From the human T2T-CHM13v2.0 reference genome, Homo sapiens, in NCBI RefSeq assembly GCF_009914755.1, contig NC_060946.1: DNA of 64,000 bases; one strand, 5' to 3'. Shown here piece after piece: positions 1-49,621 of this stretch. Made by a program: the position numbers and the translations under genes. The notes beneath the pieces were generated by a model. That model did not search any database. It worked only from the letters and a program-made list of their open reading frames with translations, and was not told the DNA's origin. Each line of letters opens with the position of its first letter. The stretch's first letter is position 1.

Positions 1-1066
1 GCCCATCCTCCAGAGCAGCATCATGCCTTCAGCCCAGGGAGGATAAGAGGACAGCATGGTCTGCCCAGACAAATAGAAAGCCCTGAAAATGAACAGGAAA
101 AGGGAGAAACAGCAGAAGAGCTGGTCAATAGAGCAGCCCTTTAAAATGATTTTACCTTGCAAATTCAATTGCAAAGACAGATGGATGTTTTAGCAAGGCT
201 GGAGAGCAAATTATGAAATCTGTGTTCCCAAGGCAATCGGGTCTGAAAAGCTTCCTTTTAAAAATTCACACTGGATGGAAATTCAAACTCTATGATTGTG
301 TGAAGTGTTCTAGCTAGATTAAGCATAATGCTATCAAAACAAGTGATTCACATATTCTGCTCATTTTTCTGTTAGTATATGGGCTTTTGGTTAGGGCAAT
401 TTCAAAAACACTGAAAGGAGCAAAATGGGATTAAAATTGTGAATCCATTTACTGCTTTCAGTTTTTCTTCCGTTTCTGTTTAATTGAGAGGAACTTACAT
501 AGGAAATTGGAGGCTCCTGAGGCTGGCTCACTTATGCACATCACAGAGATGCTATTTAAACATGTTTTCCTAGAAAGCTCTTGTAATCCACTTTAAATCT
601 GAAACCCCATTTACCTCTTTATTTGAGCTGTAGACTCACAGGATTACAGAAACCTGTGAAAATCACTTGAACTTGGGCTTCCCAAGACATTTGTTGGTTC
701 ACAGTGAACCTCAACCCTACTACATACATCAGGAAGGGTGGGTTCCTTTGCCTAACTATTCTGCCAGACCTTCTTGTCTACATGCTTATCTCCAGCCAAC
801 CACTTCTTCCATGCATATGTAAATAAAGAAACCACCCAGTTTTTCTCCCTCTGATCACTTACAGCAACGAGTGAGGACACTAAGGCAGAATATCACTAGT
901 CTCAAGACCTAGAGCAGACAACTTTACTGCTTCTGTGGCTTTCTTTTAGTTTTTGTTGTTGTTGTGCATGCTTTTGAATTATTGAGATTGTATAGCAAAT
1001 TCAAAATTGAACTAAAATTGAAATTTAAAAAATTTCTGTTATGAAAATACTAAATTAAAAAATGCT

Positions 1067-1850
<784 letters not shown>

Positions 1851-2319
1851 AATGTAGAAAATATTTAAAAATACAGAAAAAATCCCTATGTATCTATCTT
1901 ACCTGATGACTGAAGATAATCATTGTTAACATTTTAGAGTAGTTCTGATAATCTTTATGGGTTTTGCTGTTGTTAGTGGTTTCATTTTGTTTTGATATGG
2001 GTTGTTTTGTTTACATTACTGAAATCATATTATATGCACTGATTTCAAAACATAAATATAATAAGACCAGGTTCTTAAAGGCAGATAATAATAAAAAAGA
2101 CTTTGATGACAACTATTTGCCACTAGGTCTTTGCTTAGATTTAGATCATTCGTTATAGATTTAAGGGATGTATACAATCATTTTCTCAAAGTTTCTAGGT
2201 AATAAAAATGATCACTATATTGTTGTCTACAGCTCTCTTTTGTAGAATAAAAATTGTTTTAGTTTAGTAACTCTTCTAATAATATTCTCACCATGTAAAA
2301 ATACCTAAGCCGTTCTTAG

Positions 2320-2964
<645 letters not shown>

Positions 2965-3108
2965 TCCCGCTGTATCAGTTCTTCTCAATTCTACCTTTAT
3001 TGCACACTTTACATTTTAGGGTCCTTACGATCTTCCTTCTATCATCCATCTTTTTTTATTCAACCCCTTTCTCCCGTATCAACCTGCCTTCTCAATATTT
3101 TTACTTCT

Positions 3109-3426
<318 letters not shown>

Positions 3427-3576
3427 TCATGTCTTTTTGTATCCTACTAAGGATGCCAAACTTTTATACATTTTTCCCTTCATTCTTACAGTAAGCAACT
3501 TTTAAAGGTCTGCTTGTCTTCTGAGAATCACTGTTGCCTCTCCCTTATTCTGTAGCAATTTTTCACTTATCTCTCT

Positions 3577-3609
<33 letters not shown>
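3577..3609. repeat. (TTG)11 microsatellite
   Basis: Read directly; source of the poly-Q in spurious ORF 3502-3747. Confidence 0.95.
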
Positions 3610-3612
<3 letters not shown>

Positions 3613-3834
3613 GTTTTTTGTTTTTTTCCTGTTTGACCTCAAAGAAAGCAAGCTGTATCTAGGCCCAATATTTACCCAAAACAAAGTATGTGGCTTGTGC
3701 TCCAATGGAGTTTGGCCCCATTCTCCAAGTGGTTGGGTGCTAGCCAAATCCCTGTCTCAGATCTATAGCTAGATGATAGAATGATAATATATATAGTGCT
3801 CAGCTCAATTCCCAGTATATAATAATATCCATTC

Positions 3835-4050
3835 TAATAGCTAAAATTATTGAAACCTATGTGCCAGGCACTATTCTAGGCATTTTACATTTGTTAATTT
3901 AATCTCACAAGTGGGTTGTTAAATGCTGTAATTATCCTATTATTTCAGATGAGTCAGAGATGCTACAGAACTTGCCGTAGGTCACACATCTAGAAAGGGC
4001 AAGCCCAGGAAGTCTGATTCTATAGTTCAAGCTCTTAACCAGTACACTCA
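3835..4050 (-). mobile_element. MIR
   Basis: tatgtgccaggcact..tttaatctcacaa..cagatgag..aacttgcc..ggtcacac. Confidence 0.75.
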
Positions 4051-6066
4051 AATAGCATTAAATGACATCTGGGCAATAAACCAAGGCTTCTGTAAGCAAG
4101 ATACAGGAGAGAAGGTAGGATTTAGGGAGACACTATCTATGTCCAGTGATTTACAAATCATCTCTAGATAGCTCACCTGAGACCTAGTCATGGGTCTCCA
4201 GTTGTCTCAGGCTGTCACTTCATGCTCCTAGAACTTGGAGTTGAGGTAGAAGGTAGAGGTAATTTTTTAGGACAAAGTCCTATAGGTTCCCCAATTCAGA
4301 AAAGATGTATTCTAAACTGGGCTCACTGTGCCTAACCAGTCTCATTTTCCATGTCTCACCAACATGAACTCTCTATTCCAGCTAGCTTTCTTCTGTGTTC
4401 TTCGAGGAATAAACTGAATACATTGCATACCCTAGAAAAATAATAGTGGCGATAATGATGACTGAGTGTTACATATACCTTTCCTCCAAAGAGCTCACCA
4501 TGCTCTCATGCCTCCCCTTTATCATTACCGTATTACTTGGAGGGATGCAAAGTTACTAATCATTTGTTTTCCAGATGGAGAATTGAAGTACAAAGAAGGG
4601 TCACAACCTACCCAACATTAGAGAGCTGGCTACTGTTGGTATGAACCTGTTTCTTAGCTTAGCTCCTTAGGATCAGGTTCTCTGAGCCCTCCAGAGTGAA
4701 AAATACCTCGATTTATTAATCTCTGTTGGCTTGGACTTAATTTTCTAAAAATGCCTTTATCATTCTTTCAACAAACATTTACTGTAGTACTACAGGCGGC
4801 ATCAGGGATAAAAGATGATGAACACGGCTTCCTGCTCACAACCTCAAGGCAGACCCAATCACAACTCAGGGTAGTAACTGTAGAAATGGAGGCCCAAACA
4901 CAATATGCAACACCCCCAGCCATCAGCTCACTGTAATTACCACCAATGCTGCCAAAGGCAAAAGAACAAAGAATGGTTTTACATCTTGAACTTTGGAAAC
5001 ACAAAACAGTACAGATCAATACTGTGTAGGCTAACAACAAAAGGATTCATATTTCCTTTATGATGTGCTTCTTATAGGCAGTAGTTCATAAAGATCTGCT
5101 TGAAAAAGAATTATCACCAATCATTAATAAGACAAGCCAACTGGCTGAACAGTGATTTTTTAAAATCATTAATAAAATTTATTCAGCATAGAAATATGTT
5201 CATAAGTAATTCAGTAAAGCTTCATCTGTTAAATAAAAAAAATGTTGCATAGCTCATTACAAAAAACTGGGTAAGAGACAAAAGAATGAGTTTTCTCTTA
5301 TGAGGCATCTGCATAAAGTAGGTGAAAAAAATACTACTCTGGGGGCTTAGAAACTGCACATACCCATCTACAATCCTTAGAGGATCTGGAAAAAATGGAA
5401 ATTAGAAAGCGGCAAAGTCACTGTATTCTCTATTACTGAAAGACACTGTACCCCTGAGGCAAAAAACAACATATGAAACGAGAGGATGTTTTGGTCCTAG
5501 AGAGGATTGGAGAGGACTAAAAGAGAATGAATTTGGCTCTGTGCTCCAAATAGATATGAAATAATTTACTGCAGCATTACATGGTTTCTCCATTGACAAG
5601 AGTCCCTCTCCTTAATATAATAAAATAATCGAACCACAGAATTGTTTAATTACTGGGCTGGACCCTGGATATGTCATTCAGATTGATCAAAATCATCACA
5701 AACGTAACTATGGCTGGGGTTGGCCACGGAGAACTACGAGTTTCCAGTGTTTTATAATCCAGTGTTGAGTGGCAATTTCACAATCTCACGGTATTTGAGG
5801 TTAATCCACACTCTTCATTCTTCCAATCCTGCTCTCTACAATGGTTCACTTAAATACAGAGTGACTCTAGTCTAAGTAGTTGTAAAGACTGTACTTCCAC
5901 AGAAATGTCAGTTCTCAAGGTCTGCTGGACTGAATACCCACTCTCTAATCCCCACTATGTTGATTTAGATGGAAAAAGGAGTTCTGTGCCTTATTCTTCT
6001 AGTGGGAAAGGCAGTCATTATACAAATATAGGGTCAGCAAAGTAACTGAAGTGATCTCCTAGTTCT

Positions 6067-6337
6067 GTGTTTTCTGAAACTTTCTCCACAGAGCAGCTGT
6101 GTCTCATAAGATGTTAATACTGCAGATGTCCTGAGAAGTATGTGTCTTCCATGGTCAAGTGAGTATGAAACACTGGATTAAACAAAGTTAATACACGACT
6201 TCTCAGAGCCCTTCATATACTAATATGCAGAATGAATTTCCTGGAGAGGAATCTAGAATTCCAAATTATTTGATTGCAGGGATATGACAGCCTTATCCAC
6301 ATGTCCTGGAAGAAGAGTTCTATAGAACACAATTTGT
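6067..6337. mobile_element. hAT-Charlie-type MITE remnant
   Basis: ttaaacaaagttaa..gacttctcagagcc..taatatg; ccaaattatttga; subfamily uncertain. Confidence 0.45.
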
Positions 6338-12316: not shown

Positions 12317-14208
<1,892 letters not shown>

Positions 14209-14660
14209 GGATAATTTTAGTTCTAAACTTTCCATCTGGTTTTTCTTTATATCTTCTACATCTTTGCTGAGACTATATTTCTGTGTGGAAGTTGTCCATT
14301 TTTTCCATTTGTTTCAAGCTTATTCATAATTGCTCACTCATGCATTCTTATAATGTTTACTTTAAAATCTTTGTCAGATCTTTTGAGCATCGGTATCATC
14401 TCAGTGTCAGTATCCATTGGCTGTCTTTTCTCATTAAATCTAAGATCTTCCTAGTTCTTGGTATGATGAGTGATTTTCTATTGAAACCTAGGTATTTTTG
14501 ATATTATGCTATGAGATTTTGGATCTTACTTGAATGTTGTGTTTTATCAGGTCTCCTCTGACACCACTCTGTTGAGTGAAGTGAGGTAGGGGTGGGGGAC
14601 TGCCATCCTGTTACTACCTTGGGGTGGAAGTCAGGTTCTCTACTTGGCCTCTGTTGAGGG
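14209..14660 (-). mobile_element. Old L1M 5'/ORF1-region fragment
   Basis: Resembles reverse-complement ancient L1 (ttttagttctaa..ttccat..tctttgctgagact..aaatctttgtc..). Confidence 0.55.
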
Positions 14661-42507: not shown

Positions 42508-43015
42508 CTAGATTGGAGGATGCTCGCCCCTCTGCAGCCCGGTCCTTCAGATCCTCAGCAATGCCCAGCTGCTGCTCATGGTATTGTTTAGCTCTCTCCA
42601 AATCCTGCATGCACCTGGCAGCATGGCCTAGTCCAGCATAGGCCCGCATCTCAATAGCCTTCTCCATCAACTCCTGTGCCAGCTCCAGGACATAGTTATG
42701 GTAAGACATGGCCTTGTCAAAGTTCCTCCGGTAGTGATAGGCACTGCCCAGGTTGCTATAAGCCCGGGCCTCTTCTCGCTTGTTCCCCAGGTCCTTGGCT
42801 ATCTTCAGATGCTGCTCATGGCACTGCACAGCATTCTCAAAGTCACCCATGGCAATATACACAGCTCCCATGTTGCCAAGTTCTCGGGCTTCAGAAAGTT
42901 CATCTTTGGATTGCTTGGCAAGAAGAACACACTGTTTGTGACTGGCCAGTGCATTGGGGTAGTCTCCAATGGCTGTGTACACGTGGCCCAGACTGCTCAA
43001 GGCTGATGAAGCTGC
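42508..43015 (-). CDS. TTC28: Internal coding exon (508 nt, phase 0 in, phase 1 out) of tetratricopeptide repeat protein 28, probably exon 6
   Basis: Translates to four 40-aa TPR units (AASSALSSLGHVY.., SEARELGNMGAVY.., EEARAYSNLGSAY.., IEMRAYAGLGHAA..) plus AEGRASSNL. Acceptor ccttttctctccAG|GCA (AG at 43017-43016); donor CTAG|GTAAGA (GT at 42507-42506). Peptide recognised as TTC28; exon number is from memory. Confidence 0.93.
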
Positions 43016-43058
43016 CTGGAGAGAAAAGGATAAAGTGGAGAAATGAAAACACATCAGA
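43016..43058 (-). promoter_or_regulatory. TTC28: 3' splice site: polypyrimidine tract and putative branch point
   Basis: Minus strand reads TTCTGATgtgttttcatttctccactttatccttttctctccAG; yUnAy (CTGAT) puts the branch A at 43054, 39 nt upstream of the exon. Confidence 0.7.
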
Positions 43059-43099
43059 ATGGTTTTGGTATATTTTGGCAGATAAAATTTTACAGGTTG

Positions 43100-44101
43100 C
43101 AAGATGGCCGAATAGGAACAGCTCTAGTCTACAGCTCCCAGCGTGAGTGACGCAGAAGACGGGTGATTTCTGCATTTCCAACTGAGGTACCGGGTTCATC
43201 TCACTGGGGAGTGCCGGACAGTGGGTGCAGCGCACCGTGCATGAGCTGAAGCACGGCGAGGCATTGCCTCACCTGGGAAGCACAAGGGGTCAAGGAATTC
43301 CCTTTCCTAGTCAAAGAAAGGGGTGACAGACGGCACCTGGAAAATCAGGTCACTCCCACCCTAATACTGCACTTTTCCAATGGGCTTAACAAACGGCACA
43401 CCAGGAGATTATATCCCGCACCTGGCTCAGAGGGTCCTATGCCCATGGAGCCTTGCTCATTGCTAGCACAACAGTCTGAGATCAAACTGCAAGGCGGAAG
43501 CGAGGCTGGGGGAGGGGCGCCCATCATTGCCAAGGCTTGAGTAGGTAAACAAAGTGGCCAGGAAGCTCGAACTGGCTGGAGCCCACCACAGTTCAAAGAG
43601 GCCTGCCTGCTTCTGTAGACTCCACCTCTGGGAGCAGGGCACAGACAAATAAAAGACAGCAGTAACCTCTGCAGACTTAAATGTCCCTGTCTGACAGCTT
43701 TGAAGAGAGTAGTGGTTCTCCCAGCACGCAACCTGAGATCTGAGAATGGGCAGACTGCCTCCTCAAGTGGGTCTCTGAACCCCGAGTAGCCTAACTGGGA
43801 GGCACCCTCCAGTAGGGGCGGACTGACACCTCACATGGCAGGGTACTCCTCTGAGACAAAACTTCCAGAGGAACGATCAGGCAGCAGCATTTGCAGTTCA
43901 CCAATATCCACTGTTCTACAGCCACTGCTGCTGATACCCAGGCAAACAGGGTCTGGAGTGGACCTCCAGCAAACTCCAACACACCTGCAGCTGAGGGTCC
44001 TGACTGTTAGAAGGAAAACTAACAAACAGAAAGGACATCCACAACAAAAACCCATCTCCACGTCACCATCATCAAACACCAAAGTAGATAAAACCACAAA
44101 G
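43100..44101. promoter_or_regulatory. L1 5'UTR with sense and antisense promoter regions, YY1 site and retained ~129-bp ZNF93-bound segment (~43847-43977)
   Basis: YY1 motif CAAGATGGCCG at 43100-43110; extra segment between GGGTACTCC and AACACACCTGCAG, which is deleted in L1HS/L1PA2. Confidence 0.75.
43345..43527 (-). CDS. L1 ORF0 homologue (60 aa, prematurely stopped); expression unproven
   Basis: GCA ATG ATG GGC..; MMGAPPPASLPPCSLISDCCASNEQGSMGIGPSEPGAGYNLLVCRLLSPLEKCSIRVGVT*. TGA likely from CpG decay of CGA. Donor-like sites CAG|GTGCGG (43422/43421) and CAG|GTGCCG (43337/43336). Confidence 0.55.
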   Translation of the reverse strand: MMGAPPPASLPPCSLISDCCASNEQGSMGIGPSEPGAGYNLLVCRLLSPLEKCSIRVGVT

Positions 44102-45155
44102 ATGGGGAAAATACAAAGCAGAAAAACCGGAAACTCTAAAAATCAGAGTGCCTCTTCTCCTCCAAAGGAACACAGTTCCTCACCAACAATGGAACAAAGC
44201 TGAATGGAGAACGACTTTGACAAGTTGAGAGAAGAAGGCTTAAAATGATCAATGACGAGTTGAGAGAAGAAGGCTTCAGATGATCAAACTACTCTGAGCT
44301 AAAGGAGGAAGTTCGAACCCATGGCAAAGAAGTTAAAAACCTTGAAAAAAAACTAGACAAATGGCTAACTAGAATAACCAATGCAGAGAAGTCCTTAAAG
44401 GACCTGATGGAGCTGAAAACCATGGCATGAGAACTACGTGATGAATGCACAAGCCTCAGTAGCTGATGCGATCAACTGGAAGAAAGGGTATCAGTGATGG
44501 AAGACGAAATGAATGAAATGAAGTGAGAAGAGAAGTTTAGAGAAAAAAGAATAAAAAGAAATGAACAAAGCCTCCAAGAAATATGGGACTATGTGAAAAG
44601 ACCAAATCTACATCTCATTGGTGTACCTGAAAGTCATGGGGAGAATGGAACCAAGTTGGAAAACACTCTGCAGGGTATTATCCAGGAGAACTTCTCCAAT
44701 CTAGCAAGGCAGGCCAACATTCAAATTCAGGAAATACAGAGAACACCACAAAGATACTCCTCGAGAAGAGCAACGCCAAGACACATAATTGTCAGATTCA
44801 CCAAAGTTGAAATGAAGGAAAAAATGTTAAGAGCAGCCAGAGAGAAAGGTCGGGTTACCCACAAAGGGAAGCCCATCAGACTAACAGCTGATCTCTCGGC
44901 AGAAACTCTACAAGCCAGAAGAGAGTAGGGGCCAATATTCAACATTCTTAAAGAAAAGAATTTTCAACCCAGAATTTCATATCCAGCCAAACTAAGCTTC
45001 ATAAGTGAAGGAGAAATAAAATCCTTTACAGACAAGTAAATGTTGACAGATTTTGTCACCACCAGGCCTGCCCTAAAAGAGCTCCTGAAGGAAGCACTAA
45101 ATATGGAAAGGAACAACTGGTACCAGCCACTGCAAAAACATGCCAAATTGCAAAG
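44102..45155 (+). pseudogene. Disrupted L1 ORF1
   Basis: MGKIQSRKTGNSKNQS.. stops at TGA 44201-44203; 35-bp duplication at 44218-44287; RRM fragment KRPNL..ETLQARRE ends in TAG at 44928. Confidence 0.92.
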
Positions 45156-45216
45156 ACCATCCAGGCTAGGAAGAAACTGCATCAACTAACCAGCAAAATA
45201 ACCAGCTAGCATCATA

Positions 45217-49035
<3,819 letters not shown>

Positions 49036-49621
49036 TCAGAACACATGGACACAGGAAGGGGAACATCACACACCAGGGACTGTTGTGGGTTGTGGGGAGC
49101 GGGGAGGGATAGCATTGGGAGATATACCTAATGCTAAATGACGAGTTAATGGGTGCAGCACACCAACATGGCACATGTATACATATGTAAGGAACCTGCA
49201 CATTGTGCACATGTACCCTAAAACTTAAAGTATAATAATAATAAAATAAAATAAAATAAAATAAAGAACCTGATTAAATTGGGGAATTTTAAAATAAAAA
49301 CAGGAAGCACATCATACTCTTAAAAAAAAAATTTTGCAGGTTGCTTGTAATTATCCAATCCAGTTGCTAATCGTACTTCTATCAGTTTTCCACAGACCTA
49401 CGCAGAATTGATAAAGAACACATCCAAACAGCAAGTTCCTAATAAAAAACAATGGTACTTTAATCAGTAACTTTCTATACCTCATCTCCTAGAAACAAGT
49501 TGTATAACATATGTCATTTTAAGGACTTATTGACATTTCTAACATTAATTATGATATTACATCTCTGTTAATACCTATTAACCTCTGTCATATAGGAAAA
49601 TGTATAAGAAAATGGAAATTA

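What the first reader, a model, noticed from the sequence alone, without database searches (positions are those of the whole stretch)
42508..44101. L1 antisense promoter poised ~85 nt upstream of a TTC28 coding exon: candidate primate-specific internal promoter
Seen: the L1 5' end (43100) is 85 nt from the acceptor and about 46 nt beyond the putative branch point. The L1 is antisense to TTC28, so its antisense promoter would fire in the TTC28 sense direction straight into the exon. Both ORF0-region donors are present (CAG|GTGCGG 43422/1; CAG|GTGCCG 43337/6). Donor 1 is phase 1 against a phase-0 acceptor, and ORF0 stops before donor 2, so no in-frame ORF0-TTC28 fusion is predicted. The exon has an in-frame ATG in strong Kozak context (AACATGG, 42871-42869), although two out-of-frame ATGs precede it. 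Known: L1PA antisense promoters drive chimeric host transcripts (e.g. L1-MET) when demethylated. Inference: an N-terminally truncated TTC28 isoform in embryonic, placental or tumour cells.
Basis: partly seen in the sequence, partly recalled or inferred. Interest (0 to 1): 0.8.

Follow-up and report, generated by a model that had tools for sequence, protein, structure and literature searches.

The report
Old L1 beside a TTC28 exon
A roughly ape-age, coding-dead L1 retrotransposon sits 85 bases upstream of a TTC28 exon with its antisense promoter pointing into the exon, but two published genome-wide screens did not see it used and any transcript from it would translate TTC28 poorly, so it looks ordinary.

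Summary
The repeat is a full-length, coding-dead L1PA4 on the + strand. It has a 17-nt target-site duplication, a short 3' transduction and a 128-nt 5'UTR segment where the ZNF93-evading 129-bp deletion would lie.

The functional reading has no support so far. A published RNA-seq screen of brain and glioma tested this element among 9123 and did not list it among 1677 chimeras. Three of its four + strand neighbours in the stretch of that list I saw, and a fourth TTC28 L1 further on, were listed. A spliced-EST screen covering 988 genes has no TTC28 entry from it.

Any such transcript carries 6 to 11 upstream ATGs, including a 60- or 73-codon ORF0 frame, before the in-frame ATG.

Verdict: an ordinary catalogued intronic L1 with a latent antisense promoter. 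No CAGE or RNA-seq data, other primate genomes or the other ten RefSeq transcripts could be consulted.

The parts
42508..43015 (-). TTC28 coding exon, 508 nt, phase 0 at the acceptor, TPR repeats. Corresponds to residues 315-483 of a 2512-aa TTC28-like representative.
   Evidence: frame; TPR_12 E 3e-30; 80% identity to P0001 315-483; hub gene table
43016..43099 (-). Intron remnant between the L1 and the acceptor. Holds a pyrimidine tract and branch-point-like CTGAT (A 43054) and TTCAT (A 43044).
   Evidence: printed string; motif matches only
43084..43100 (.). 5' copy of the 17-nt target-site duplication. It is preceded by T, giving a T/AAAA endonuclease-type site.
   Evidence: 17 nt with 1 mismatch against 49328-49344; 13 of 2000 random segment pairs reach this
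43100..44101 (+). L1PA4 5'UTR, 1002 nt, starting at consensus position 12. The YY1-box string AAGATGGCC is at 43101-43109. It has 22 CpG (observed/expected 0.31).
   Evidence: RepeatMasker row in Pinson Table S1; YY1 at L1 13-21
43488..43688 (-). Stretch homologous to L1 positions about 400-600, the classical antisense promoter region. Holds 4 CpG and a TGTGGT motif at 43590-43585.
   Evidence: position arithmetic (ASP regions +300-500 and +150-250; filter 400-600)
43345..43527 (-). ORF0 homologue, 60 codons, cut short by a private TGA.
   Evidence: TGA at this place in 0 of 12 related copies and not in the intron-1 L1, whose frame runs 71 codons
43416..43424 (-). Antisense donor 1, CAG|GTGCGG, 7 of 9 consensus positions, phase 1 in ORF0.
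   Evidence: exact in 3 of 12 copies, GT kept in 9 of 12
43331..43339 (-). Antisense donor 2, CAG|GTGCCG, 6 of 9 consensus positions, 8 nt after the ORF0 stop.
   Evidence: exact in 6 of 12 copies, GT kept in 12 of 12
43267..43275 (-). Third donor-like site, CAG|GTGAGG, 8 of 9 consensus positions.
   Evidence: identical in the intron-1 L1
43845..43972 (+). 128-nt 5'UTR segment that is absent from the young L1 in TTC28 intron 1. It lies where the 129-bp deletion that evades ZNF93 would be.
   Evidence: alignment gap; Repeat Browser paper, passages. That it is the same segment is inferred from size and place.
44102..49265 (+). L1 body. ORF1 is stopped after 33 codons and carries a 35-nt tandem duplication. 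The longest ORF2 piece is 564 aa with a partial RVT_1 match. Followed by the 3'UTR and an A-rich tail.
49266..49327 (+). 3' transduced flank (about 52 nt with AATAAA) plus a second tail of 10 A.
   Evidence: (93% match to chr13)
49328..49344 (.). 3' copy of the target-site duplication.
43052..43054 (-). ATG in frame with the exon through retained intron bases (13 extra codons), weak context.
42869..42871 (-). In-frame ATG in context AACATGG, codon 49 of the exon. It is the Met of an Asn-Met-Gly TPR motif.

Best explanation
This is an ordinary, fixed, full-length but coding-dead L1PA4. It inserted by target-primed reverse transcription into a TTC28 intron 68-85 nt upstream of the acceptor, antisense to the gene, and left the branch-point and pyrimidine tract untouched. 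The exon is still spliced into the selected transcript.

Its 5'UTR still has the sequence of an L1 antisense promoter, so it is a latent co-directional promoter. Most likely it is not used at a biologically meaningful level.

If it fires at all, the expected product is a rare, mostly unspliced L1 chimeric transcript. That transcript would run through the 85 intron bases into the exon. Upstream reading frames would then block translation of TTC28.

Shown: the anatomy, the frames, and absence from two screens. Inferred: silence elsewhere, and repression by ZNF93/KAP1.
For: **Anatomy**
- 17-nt target-site duplication, T/AAAA cleavage site and two A tails.
- Broken ORF1 and ORF2.
- RepeatMasker row: L1PA4, consensus 12-6152, 5.1% diverged.

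**Expression**
- The element is in the list of 9123 ASP-bearing L1s screened by CLIFinder in 3 brain and 8 glioma samples. It has no row among the 1677 chimeras.
- Of the five + strand L1s that the fetched passage of that list shows between hg19 28.48 and 28.61 Mb, three have chimera rows. This one and an L1P1 fragment do not. A fourth TTC28 L1, at 28.92 Mb, also has a row.
- In that study only 2.9% of such transcripts were spliced at the 5' end.
- The EST screen required a start antisense in an L1 plus overlap with a RefSeq exon. It lists only TTC28-AS1/L1MC5, and no row carries a coordinate beginning 28559 or 28560.
- Full-text searches for TTC28 with antisense promoter, L1PA4, ORF0 or chimeric transcript returned 12, 6, 7 and 14 papers. 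I opened TTC28 passages in five of them. In each, TTC28 referred to the intron-1 L1HS or to a citation of it.

**Coding**
- Spliced models have 4 L1 ATGs plus 2 exon ATGs before 42871.
- The donor-1 product is a 73-codon frame ending at 42900, 29 nt before that ATG.
- The unspliced model has 11 earlier ATGs.

**Repression**
- The 128-nt segment at 43845-43972 is retained.
- ZNF93 arose in the ape ancestor against L1PA4, and the 129-bp deletion evades it.

**Retrocopies**
- The exon is single-copy in the assembly, so no retrocopy of a chimeric mRNA exists.
Against: - Nothing in the sequence disables the antisense promoter. Its 5'UTR has 22 CpG, within the 16-28 of the four TTC28 L1s that do give chimeric reads.
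- The TGTGGT motif is kept, whereas one of the positive neighbours lacks it.
- Identity to the intron-1 L1 across the promoter region is 90.5%.
- Read counts for the positive neighbours are only 0-10 per sample, and the authors say detection was not saturated, so a miss is weak evidence.
- L1PA4 elements are among those expressed in induced pluripotent cells, and about a hundred L1-dependent transcripts were found there. That paper's supplementary gene list could not be opened.
- ESTs are sparse.
- No embryonic, placental or pan-cancer data were seen.
Confidence: 0.68

Rival explanations
1. Context-specific L1 chimeric transcript without a protein product. In cells where L1PA4 promoters escape repression (pluripotent, placental, germ-line, hypomethylated tumours), the antisense promoter fires reproducibly. 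Transcripts enter the exon, mostly unspliced, and join the downstream TTC28 exons. They behave as non-coding or decay-prone RNAs because ORF0 and other upstream frames are translated first.
For: - The geometry is confirmed.
- 17% of L1PA1-7 elements with a 5'UTR gave such transcripts in brain and glioma alone, and this activity tracks host-gene activity when both are on the same strand.
- Four sister L1s in TTC28 do so.
- L1HS to L1PA4 elements are expressed in pluripotent cells and act as alternative promoters.
- The promoter region looks no more decayed than in the positive neighbours.
Against: - Not detected in the 11 samples where its neighbours were.
- No spliced EST.
- The ZNF93-target-like segment is retained.
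- No paper names it.
Confidence: 0.25
2. An ape-specific internal promoter yields an N-terminally truncated TTC28 protein lacking roughly the first 350 of about 2500 residues. Translation would start at ATG 42871, or at ATG 43054 in unspliced transcripts.
For: - ATG 42871 is in frame in context AACATGG, and ATG 43054 is in frame through the retained intron bases.
- The rest of the TPR array would be kept.
- The EST study cites ELAPOR2-type and UVRAG-type precedents for L1-started coding isoforms, and the pluripotent-cell study reports such cases.
Against: - Everything listed against the chimeric-transcript rival applies here too.
- Six to eleven upstream ATGs come first, one of them (43524) in a strong context.
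- A 60- or 73-codon upstream frame ends 29 nt before, or far upstream of, the start.
- The exon ATGs at 42954 and 42903 open a frame that overlaps 42871.
- ATG 43054 has a weak context.
- The Kozak-like context is explained by the Asn-Met-Gly codons of a repeat motif.
Confidence: 0.05

Closest known systems
L1 chimeric transcripts (LCTs) from L1PA1-7 antisense promoters, including four in TTC28 itself (Pinson et al. 2022, PMC9396940; sections and supplementary tables read)
   Same: Same gene, strand arrangement and kind of element: full-length L1PA3-5, + strand, antisense to TTC28, with the 5'UTR intact over positions 400-600.
   Different: Those four have supporting read pairs. This one was tested in the same data and has none. 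This one lies 85 nt from a coding exon. I did not determine that distance for the others.
L1-MET (as described in the Background of Criscione et al. 2016, PMC4908685)
   Same: An intronic L1 antisense to its host gene, downstream of the normal start codon. Its antisense promoter makes a transcript joined to downstream host exons.
   Different: L1-MET is experimentally documented and methylation-controlled. Here no transcript has been seen. That the L1-MET element is younger is my recollection, not a call result.
Gene-breaking by antisense intronic L1 (Wheelan et al. 2005; seen only as a reference entry, paper not held)
   Different: The upstream half needs antisense polyadenylation inside the L1. 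This copy has only one AATAAA and one ATTAAA on the TTC28-sense strand. No truncated upstream transcript is known to me.
L1 antisense promoters as alternative promoters in pluripotent cells, e.g. ELAPOR2 and PPP1R1C (Cell Genomics 2025, PMC12791003; passages read)
   Same: Hominoid-age L1 (L1HS to L1PA4), antisense in an intron, driving the exons downstream of it.
   Different: Those cases are shown by loss of downstream exon signal on L1 silencing. TTC28 appears in that paper's main text only in a reference, and its supplements could not be opened.
The 22q12.1 L1HS-Ta in TTC28 intron 1 (the 'hot' L1 of cancers)
   Same: Same gene and same antisense orientation.
   Different: It is a different element, about 500 kb away. 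It lacks the 128-nt segment, has 36 CpG in the aligned 5'UTR against 22 here, and has a 71-codon antisense frame against 60 here. It is known for sense-strand activity and retrotransposition. This one is coding-dead.

Membership tests
Full-length L1PA4 retrotransposon insertion | Classified as L1PA4 over nearly the whole consensus | tested here: met
   RepeatMasker row in Pinson Table S1: hg19 chr22:28559671-28565818, + strand, L1PA4, consensus 12-6152, 5.1% diverged. The link to the window rests on an offset from recalled gene coordinates. Position (within 5 nt), strand, length and neighbours corroborate it.
Full-length L1PA4 retrotransposon insertion | Target-site duplication, endonuclease-type site and A tail | tested here: met
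   17-nt duplication with 1 mismatch; 13 of 2000 random pairs reach this. T/AAAA at its start. A-rich tail plus a second A10 after a transduced flank.
Full-length L1PA4 retrotransposon insertion | ORF1 and ORF2 (reverse transcriptase) sequence | tested here: met
   RVT_1 match E 1.9e-26 on a 564-aa piece. Both frames are broken, so the copy is dead.
L1 antisense-promoter chimeric transcript locus (LCT) | L1PA1-7 element with the 5'UTR covering positions 400-600 | tested here: met
   The element passes that published filter and is in the published list.
L1 antisense-promoter chimeric transcript locus (LCT) | Antisense promoter co-directional with a flanking unique sequence or exon | tested here: met
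   L1 on +, TTC28 on -, exon 85 nt beyond the L1 5' end.
L1 antisense-promoter chimeric transcript locus (LCT) | [quoted passage not shown] | tested here: not met
   No row among 1677 chimeras from brain and glioma, and no EST row. This covers only those tissues and libraries.
ORF0-host exon fusion | ORF0 open up to a donor that joins an exon in frame | tested here: not met
   Donor 1 is phase 1 against a phase-0 acceptor, giving a 73-codon frame that stops at 42900. ORF0 stops 8 nt before donor 2.
ZNF93-targeted L1 (L1PA4 to older L1PA3) | Retains the 129-bp 5'UTR segment deleted in younger L1s | tested here: inconclusive
   A 128-nt segment is present here and absent from the intron-1 L1. 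Identity with the published 129-bp region is inferred from size and place. Binding was not tested.

The most novel reading that the evidence does not exclude
The L1PA4 antisense promoter is an ape-specific internal promoter of TTC28. It would be used where KRAB zinc-finger and methylation control lapse, such as placenta, germ line and hypomethylated tumours. Its transcripts enter the exon and yield a TTC28 protein lacking about 350 N-terminal residues, from ATG 43054 or 42871.
Probability: 0.05. Interest if true: 0.4.

Novelty: already known. Interest (0 to 1): 0.12.

Why it matters
If the promoter were used, TTC28 would join the roughly one hundred genes with an ape-specific L1-started isoform. 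It is a large TPR protein that I recall being linked to mitosis; no call checked this. That would be a modest addition to a well-described class.

As it stands, the value of this check is negative. A striking geometry, with an L1 promoter 85 nt from a coding exon, is what chance placement of thousands of such L1s should give dozens of times. On my own round numbers, about 8700 ASP-bearing L1s and about 200,000 internal exons give a few tens within 100 nt in the right orientation. Here that geometry comes with no sign of use.

Tried and rejected
1. **Short library proteins as isoform evidence.** Several start at or near the exon, for example a 184-aa entry that begins exactly at the in-frame Met. 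After the exon they run on into intron-like sequence, so they are ORF-calling products from genomic DNA. Rejected.

2. **Retrocopy of a chimeric mRNA.** The exon is single-copy in the assembly. Nothing found.

3. **Sequence reason for the missing chimeric reads.** I compared this copy with 12 relatives: the 7 nearest of 40 scored hits, the 4 positive TTC28 L1s, and an L1P1 fragment in the window. CpG counts, donors and the TGTGGT motif do not separate it from the positives. No explanation found.

4. **Dating from the transduced flank.** The local alignment shows a few mismatches over about 60 nt against chr13, and the genome search gives 93% over 61 nt. That is too few sites to date the insertion.

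5. **Methylation data.** The locus-level L1 methylation tables (PMC10879037) have 18 TTC28 hits but no row beginning 28163 or 28164 in hg38. That file was cut when stored.

6. **Closed or missing sources.**
   - Wheelan 2005 and Khan 2006 are not held.
Gene lists there may bear on the pluripotent-cell and neural cases.

7. **Splice-site scoring.** No MaxEnt-type scoring was available. Only matches to the 9-position donor consensus were counted.
Full report
**Observation**

- The exon 42508-43015 is 508 nt and open only in the frame that starts at its first base. It is preceded by a long pyrimidine tract and CAG, and followed by GTAAGA.
- Its 169 codons are TPR repeats (TPR_12, E 3e-30).
- They align at 80% identity to residues 315-483 of a 2512-residue TTC28-like representative.
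- The two antisense donors are at the stated bases: CAG|GTGCGG with last exon base 43422, and CAG|GTGCCG with last exon base 43337.
- The ORF0 homologue runs from ATG 43527 to a TGA ending at 43345.
- Donor 1 is phase 1.
- The ATG at 42871 is in frame in context AACATGG, after two out-of-frame exon ATGs.

- A better donor-like site, CAG|GTGAGG, lies at 43273/2 and matches 8 of 9 consensus positions.
- An ATG at 43054 is in frame with the exon through the last 39 intron bases, in weak context.

**What the repeat is**

It is a single L1 insertion with clean hallmarks.

- *Target-site duplication.* A 17-nt duplication with one mismatch lies at 43084-43100 and 49328-49344. Only 13 of 2000 random segment pairs of the same sizes reach this. 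It begins right after a T, which gives a T/AAAA cleavage-type site.
- *5' end.* The duplication fixes the L1 5' end at 43100/43101.
- *Effect on the intron.* The insertion added sequence 68-85 nt upstream of the acceptor and left the branch-point candidates (A 43054, A 43044) and the pyrimidine tract intact.
- *Size.* The 5'UTR is 1002 nt, with the ORF1 ATG at 44102. The element runs to an A-rich tail ending near 49265.
- *3' transduction.* About 52 nt of foreign sequence with an AATAAA follow, then ten A.
- *Source of the transduced flank.* It matches chr13 of the same assembly at 93%. No L1 lies upstream of it there. The progenitor locus therefore survives only as an empty site in this genome.
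- *Coding state.* ORF1 stops after 33 codons and carries a 35-nt tandem duplication. The longest ORF2 piece is 564 aa with a partial reverse-transcriptase match. The copy is dead.

**Subfamily**

Supplementary Table S1 of Pinson et al. 2022 (PMC9396940) lists hg19 chr22:28559671-28565818, + strand, L1PA4, consensus 12-6152, 5.1% diverged.

I linked this row to the window through an offset of 65,433 between T2T and hg19. The offset comes from my recalled hg19 coordinates of TTC28. Three things corroborate it:
- it predicts the L1 start within 5 nt;
- it predicts the neighbouring L1PA3 within 7 nt of a search hit;
- strand, length and the 11-nt 5' truncation all fit.

**Comparison with the intron-1 L1**

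I compared this copy with the L1 at the place expected for the well-known 22q12.1 L1HS in TTC28 intron 1.

| Feature | This L1PA4 | Intron-1 L1 |
|---|---|---|
| 5'UTR identity | 90.8% between the two | — |
| CpG in the aligned 5'UTR | 22 | 36 |
| Antisense frame from the homologous ATG | 60 codons | 71 codons |
| 128-nt segment at 43845-43972 | present | absent |

The Repeat Browser paper (PMC7110667, passages read) makes two relevant statements. A 129-bp deletion fixed in L1PA3 and younger families evades ZNF93. ZNF93 arose in the ape ancestor to repress L1PA4. By size and place, the 128-nt segment is probably that target. This is an inference, and binding was not tested.

It fits an ape-age insertion and predicts KRAB zinc-finger silencing in early embryonic cells. 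No other primate genome was available to check the age.

**Is the antisense promoter intact?**

Positions 400-600 of the consensus map to about 43488-43688. I compared named sites pairwise with 12 related copies. These were the 7 nearest of the 40 hits scored (out of 6073 first-look candidates), the four TTC28 L1s that give chimeric reads, and an L1P1 fragment elsewhere in the window.

| Site | Exact match | Key bases kept |
|---|---|---|
| Donor 1 | 3 of 12 | GT in 9 of 12 |
| Donor 2 | 6 of 12 | GT in 12 of 12 |
| TGA that ends ORF0 early | 0 of 12 | also absent from the intron-1 L1 |
| TGTGGT motif at 43590-43585 | 9 of 12 | one positive neighbour lacks it |

- The early TGA is therefore a private change at a former CpG.
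- The TGTGGT motif is what I recall as the RUNX site of the antisense promoter. No call confirmed that name.
- CpG counts in the 5'UTRs of the 12 copies range from 16 to 30, and from 16 to 28 in the four positives. This copy has 22.

Nothing in the sequence marks this promoter as broken. Nothing marks it as special either.

**What a transcript would encode (with an arbitrary start at 43700)**

- *Spliced from donor 1.* The ORF0 start gives a 73-codon frame that runs into the exon out of frame. It stops at 42900, 29 nt before ATG 42871.
- *Spliced from donor 2 (and, by my reading of the table, from the third donor).* ORF0 ends inside the L1. Two out-of-frame exon ATGs then open a frame that overlaps ATG 42871.
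- *Count in the spliced models.* Six ATGs precede the proposed start. One of them (43524) has A at -3 and G at +4.
- *Unspliced.* Eleven ATGs precede 42871. The first in-frame one is 43054, in weak context.
- *The Kozak-like context of 42871.* It is the codon string Asn-Met-Gly. GNM or NMG occurs three times in the TTC28-like representative: LGNMG, aligned to the exon's own Met, plus two further GNM. Protein constraint explains it.
- *If a protein were made.* It would lack about the first 350 of roughly 2500 residues.

**Expression evidence in print**

*Pinson et al. 2022 (sections 5, 6, 15, 16 and two supplementary tables read).*
- They screened the first 500 bp of 9123 L1PA1-8 elements in stranded total-RNA data from 3 brains and 8 gliomas, and listed 1677 chimeras.
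- This L1PA4 is in the tested list and has no chimera row.
- The four TTC28 rows belong to other L1s: L1PA3 at 28479519, L1PA4 at 28587311, and L1PA5 at 28605174 and 28924935. They have consecutive identifiers and 0-10 reads per sample.
- In that study only 2.9% of such transcripts were spliced at the 5' end. Unspliced run-through is therefore the expected form if this promoter ever fires.

*Criscione et al. 2016 (PMC4908685; passages and supplements searched).*
- They found 988 genes. TTC28 is absent; only TTC28-AS1 with an L1MC5 appears.
- No row has a coordinate beginning 28559 or 28560.

*Full-text searches.*
- TTC28 together with antisense promoter and LINE-1, with L1PA4, with ORF0, and with chimeric transcript returned 12, 6, 7 and 14 papers.
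- I opened the TTC28 passages of five of them. In each, TTC28 referred to the intron-1 L1HS or to a citation of it.

*Against my reading.*
- The authors say detection was not saturated.
- ESTs are sparse.
- L1HS to L1PA4 elements are expressed in induced pluripotent cells, where about a hundred L1-dependent transcripts exist.
- I could not open that paper's supplements or those of a neural study.

**Verdict**

The anatomy is real and correctly read. The element is an ordinary, catalogued L1PA4 with a latent antisense promoter. My odds are:
- 0.68 that it has no reproducible promoter use;
- 0.25 that it gives a context-specific, non-productive chimeric RNA;
- 0.05 that it gives a truncated TTC28 protein.

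The closest known cases are the L1 chimeric transcripts of the same gene, L1-MET, and the L1-started isoforms of pluripotent cells. It shares their architecture. It fails the one defining test that could be made here, which is evidence of transcripts.

**Limits**

No CAGE, RNA-seq, methylation or ChIP data were available for this locus. I could not see the other ten RefSeq transcripts, any other primate genome, or a splice-site scoring model.

Noticed in passing
window 49266-49327; L010 1503-1560 (T2T chr13:78,640,558-78,640,618): The L1 carries a short 3' transduction with its own AATAAA and a second A10 tail. The transduced flank matches chr13 at 93%. No L1 lies upstream of it there, so the progenitor locus is an empty site in this assembly: the progenitor was lost, or was never fixed.
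   Followed up: partly
window 44218-44287: A 35-nt tandem duplication (91% identical copies) lies just downstream of the premature stop at 44201-44203 in the ORF1 reading frame of the L1.
   Followed up: no
window about 12660-14215 (L015): A second ASP-bearing L1 5' fragment (L1P1, 3'-truncated, + strand) lies in the same TTC28 intron region. Like the L1PA4 it has no chimera row in Pinson Table S2. Published methylation rows show it less methylated in three of twelve cell lines (values 0.32-0.76 against 0.91-1.0), as far as the fetched passage shows.
   Followed up: partly
T2T chr22:28,544,945; 28,652,7xx; 28,670,6xx; 28,990,3xx (L011-L014), outside the window: TTC28 hosts at least four further full-length L1PA3-5 elements, all antisense to the gene, that give low-level chimeric reads in brain and glioma. 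The gene is unusually rich in co-directional L1 antisense promoters.
   Followed up: partly
proteins P0018, P0019, P0114 and others: The 1.84-billion-protein library holds short 'proteins' that are this exon plus translated intron sequence from mammalian DNA. One starts exactly at the in-frame Met. They are gene-calling artefacts and could mislead a search for isoforms.
   Followed up: yes
window 43845-43972: A 128-nt 5'UTR segment is present here but absent from the young L1 in TTC28 intron 1. It lies where the published ZNF93-evading 129-bp deletion would be.
   Followed up: partly
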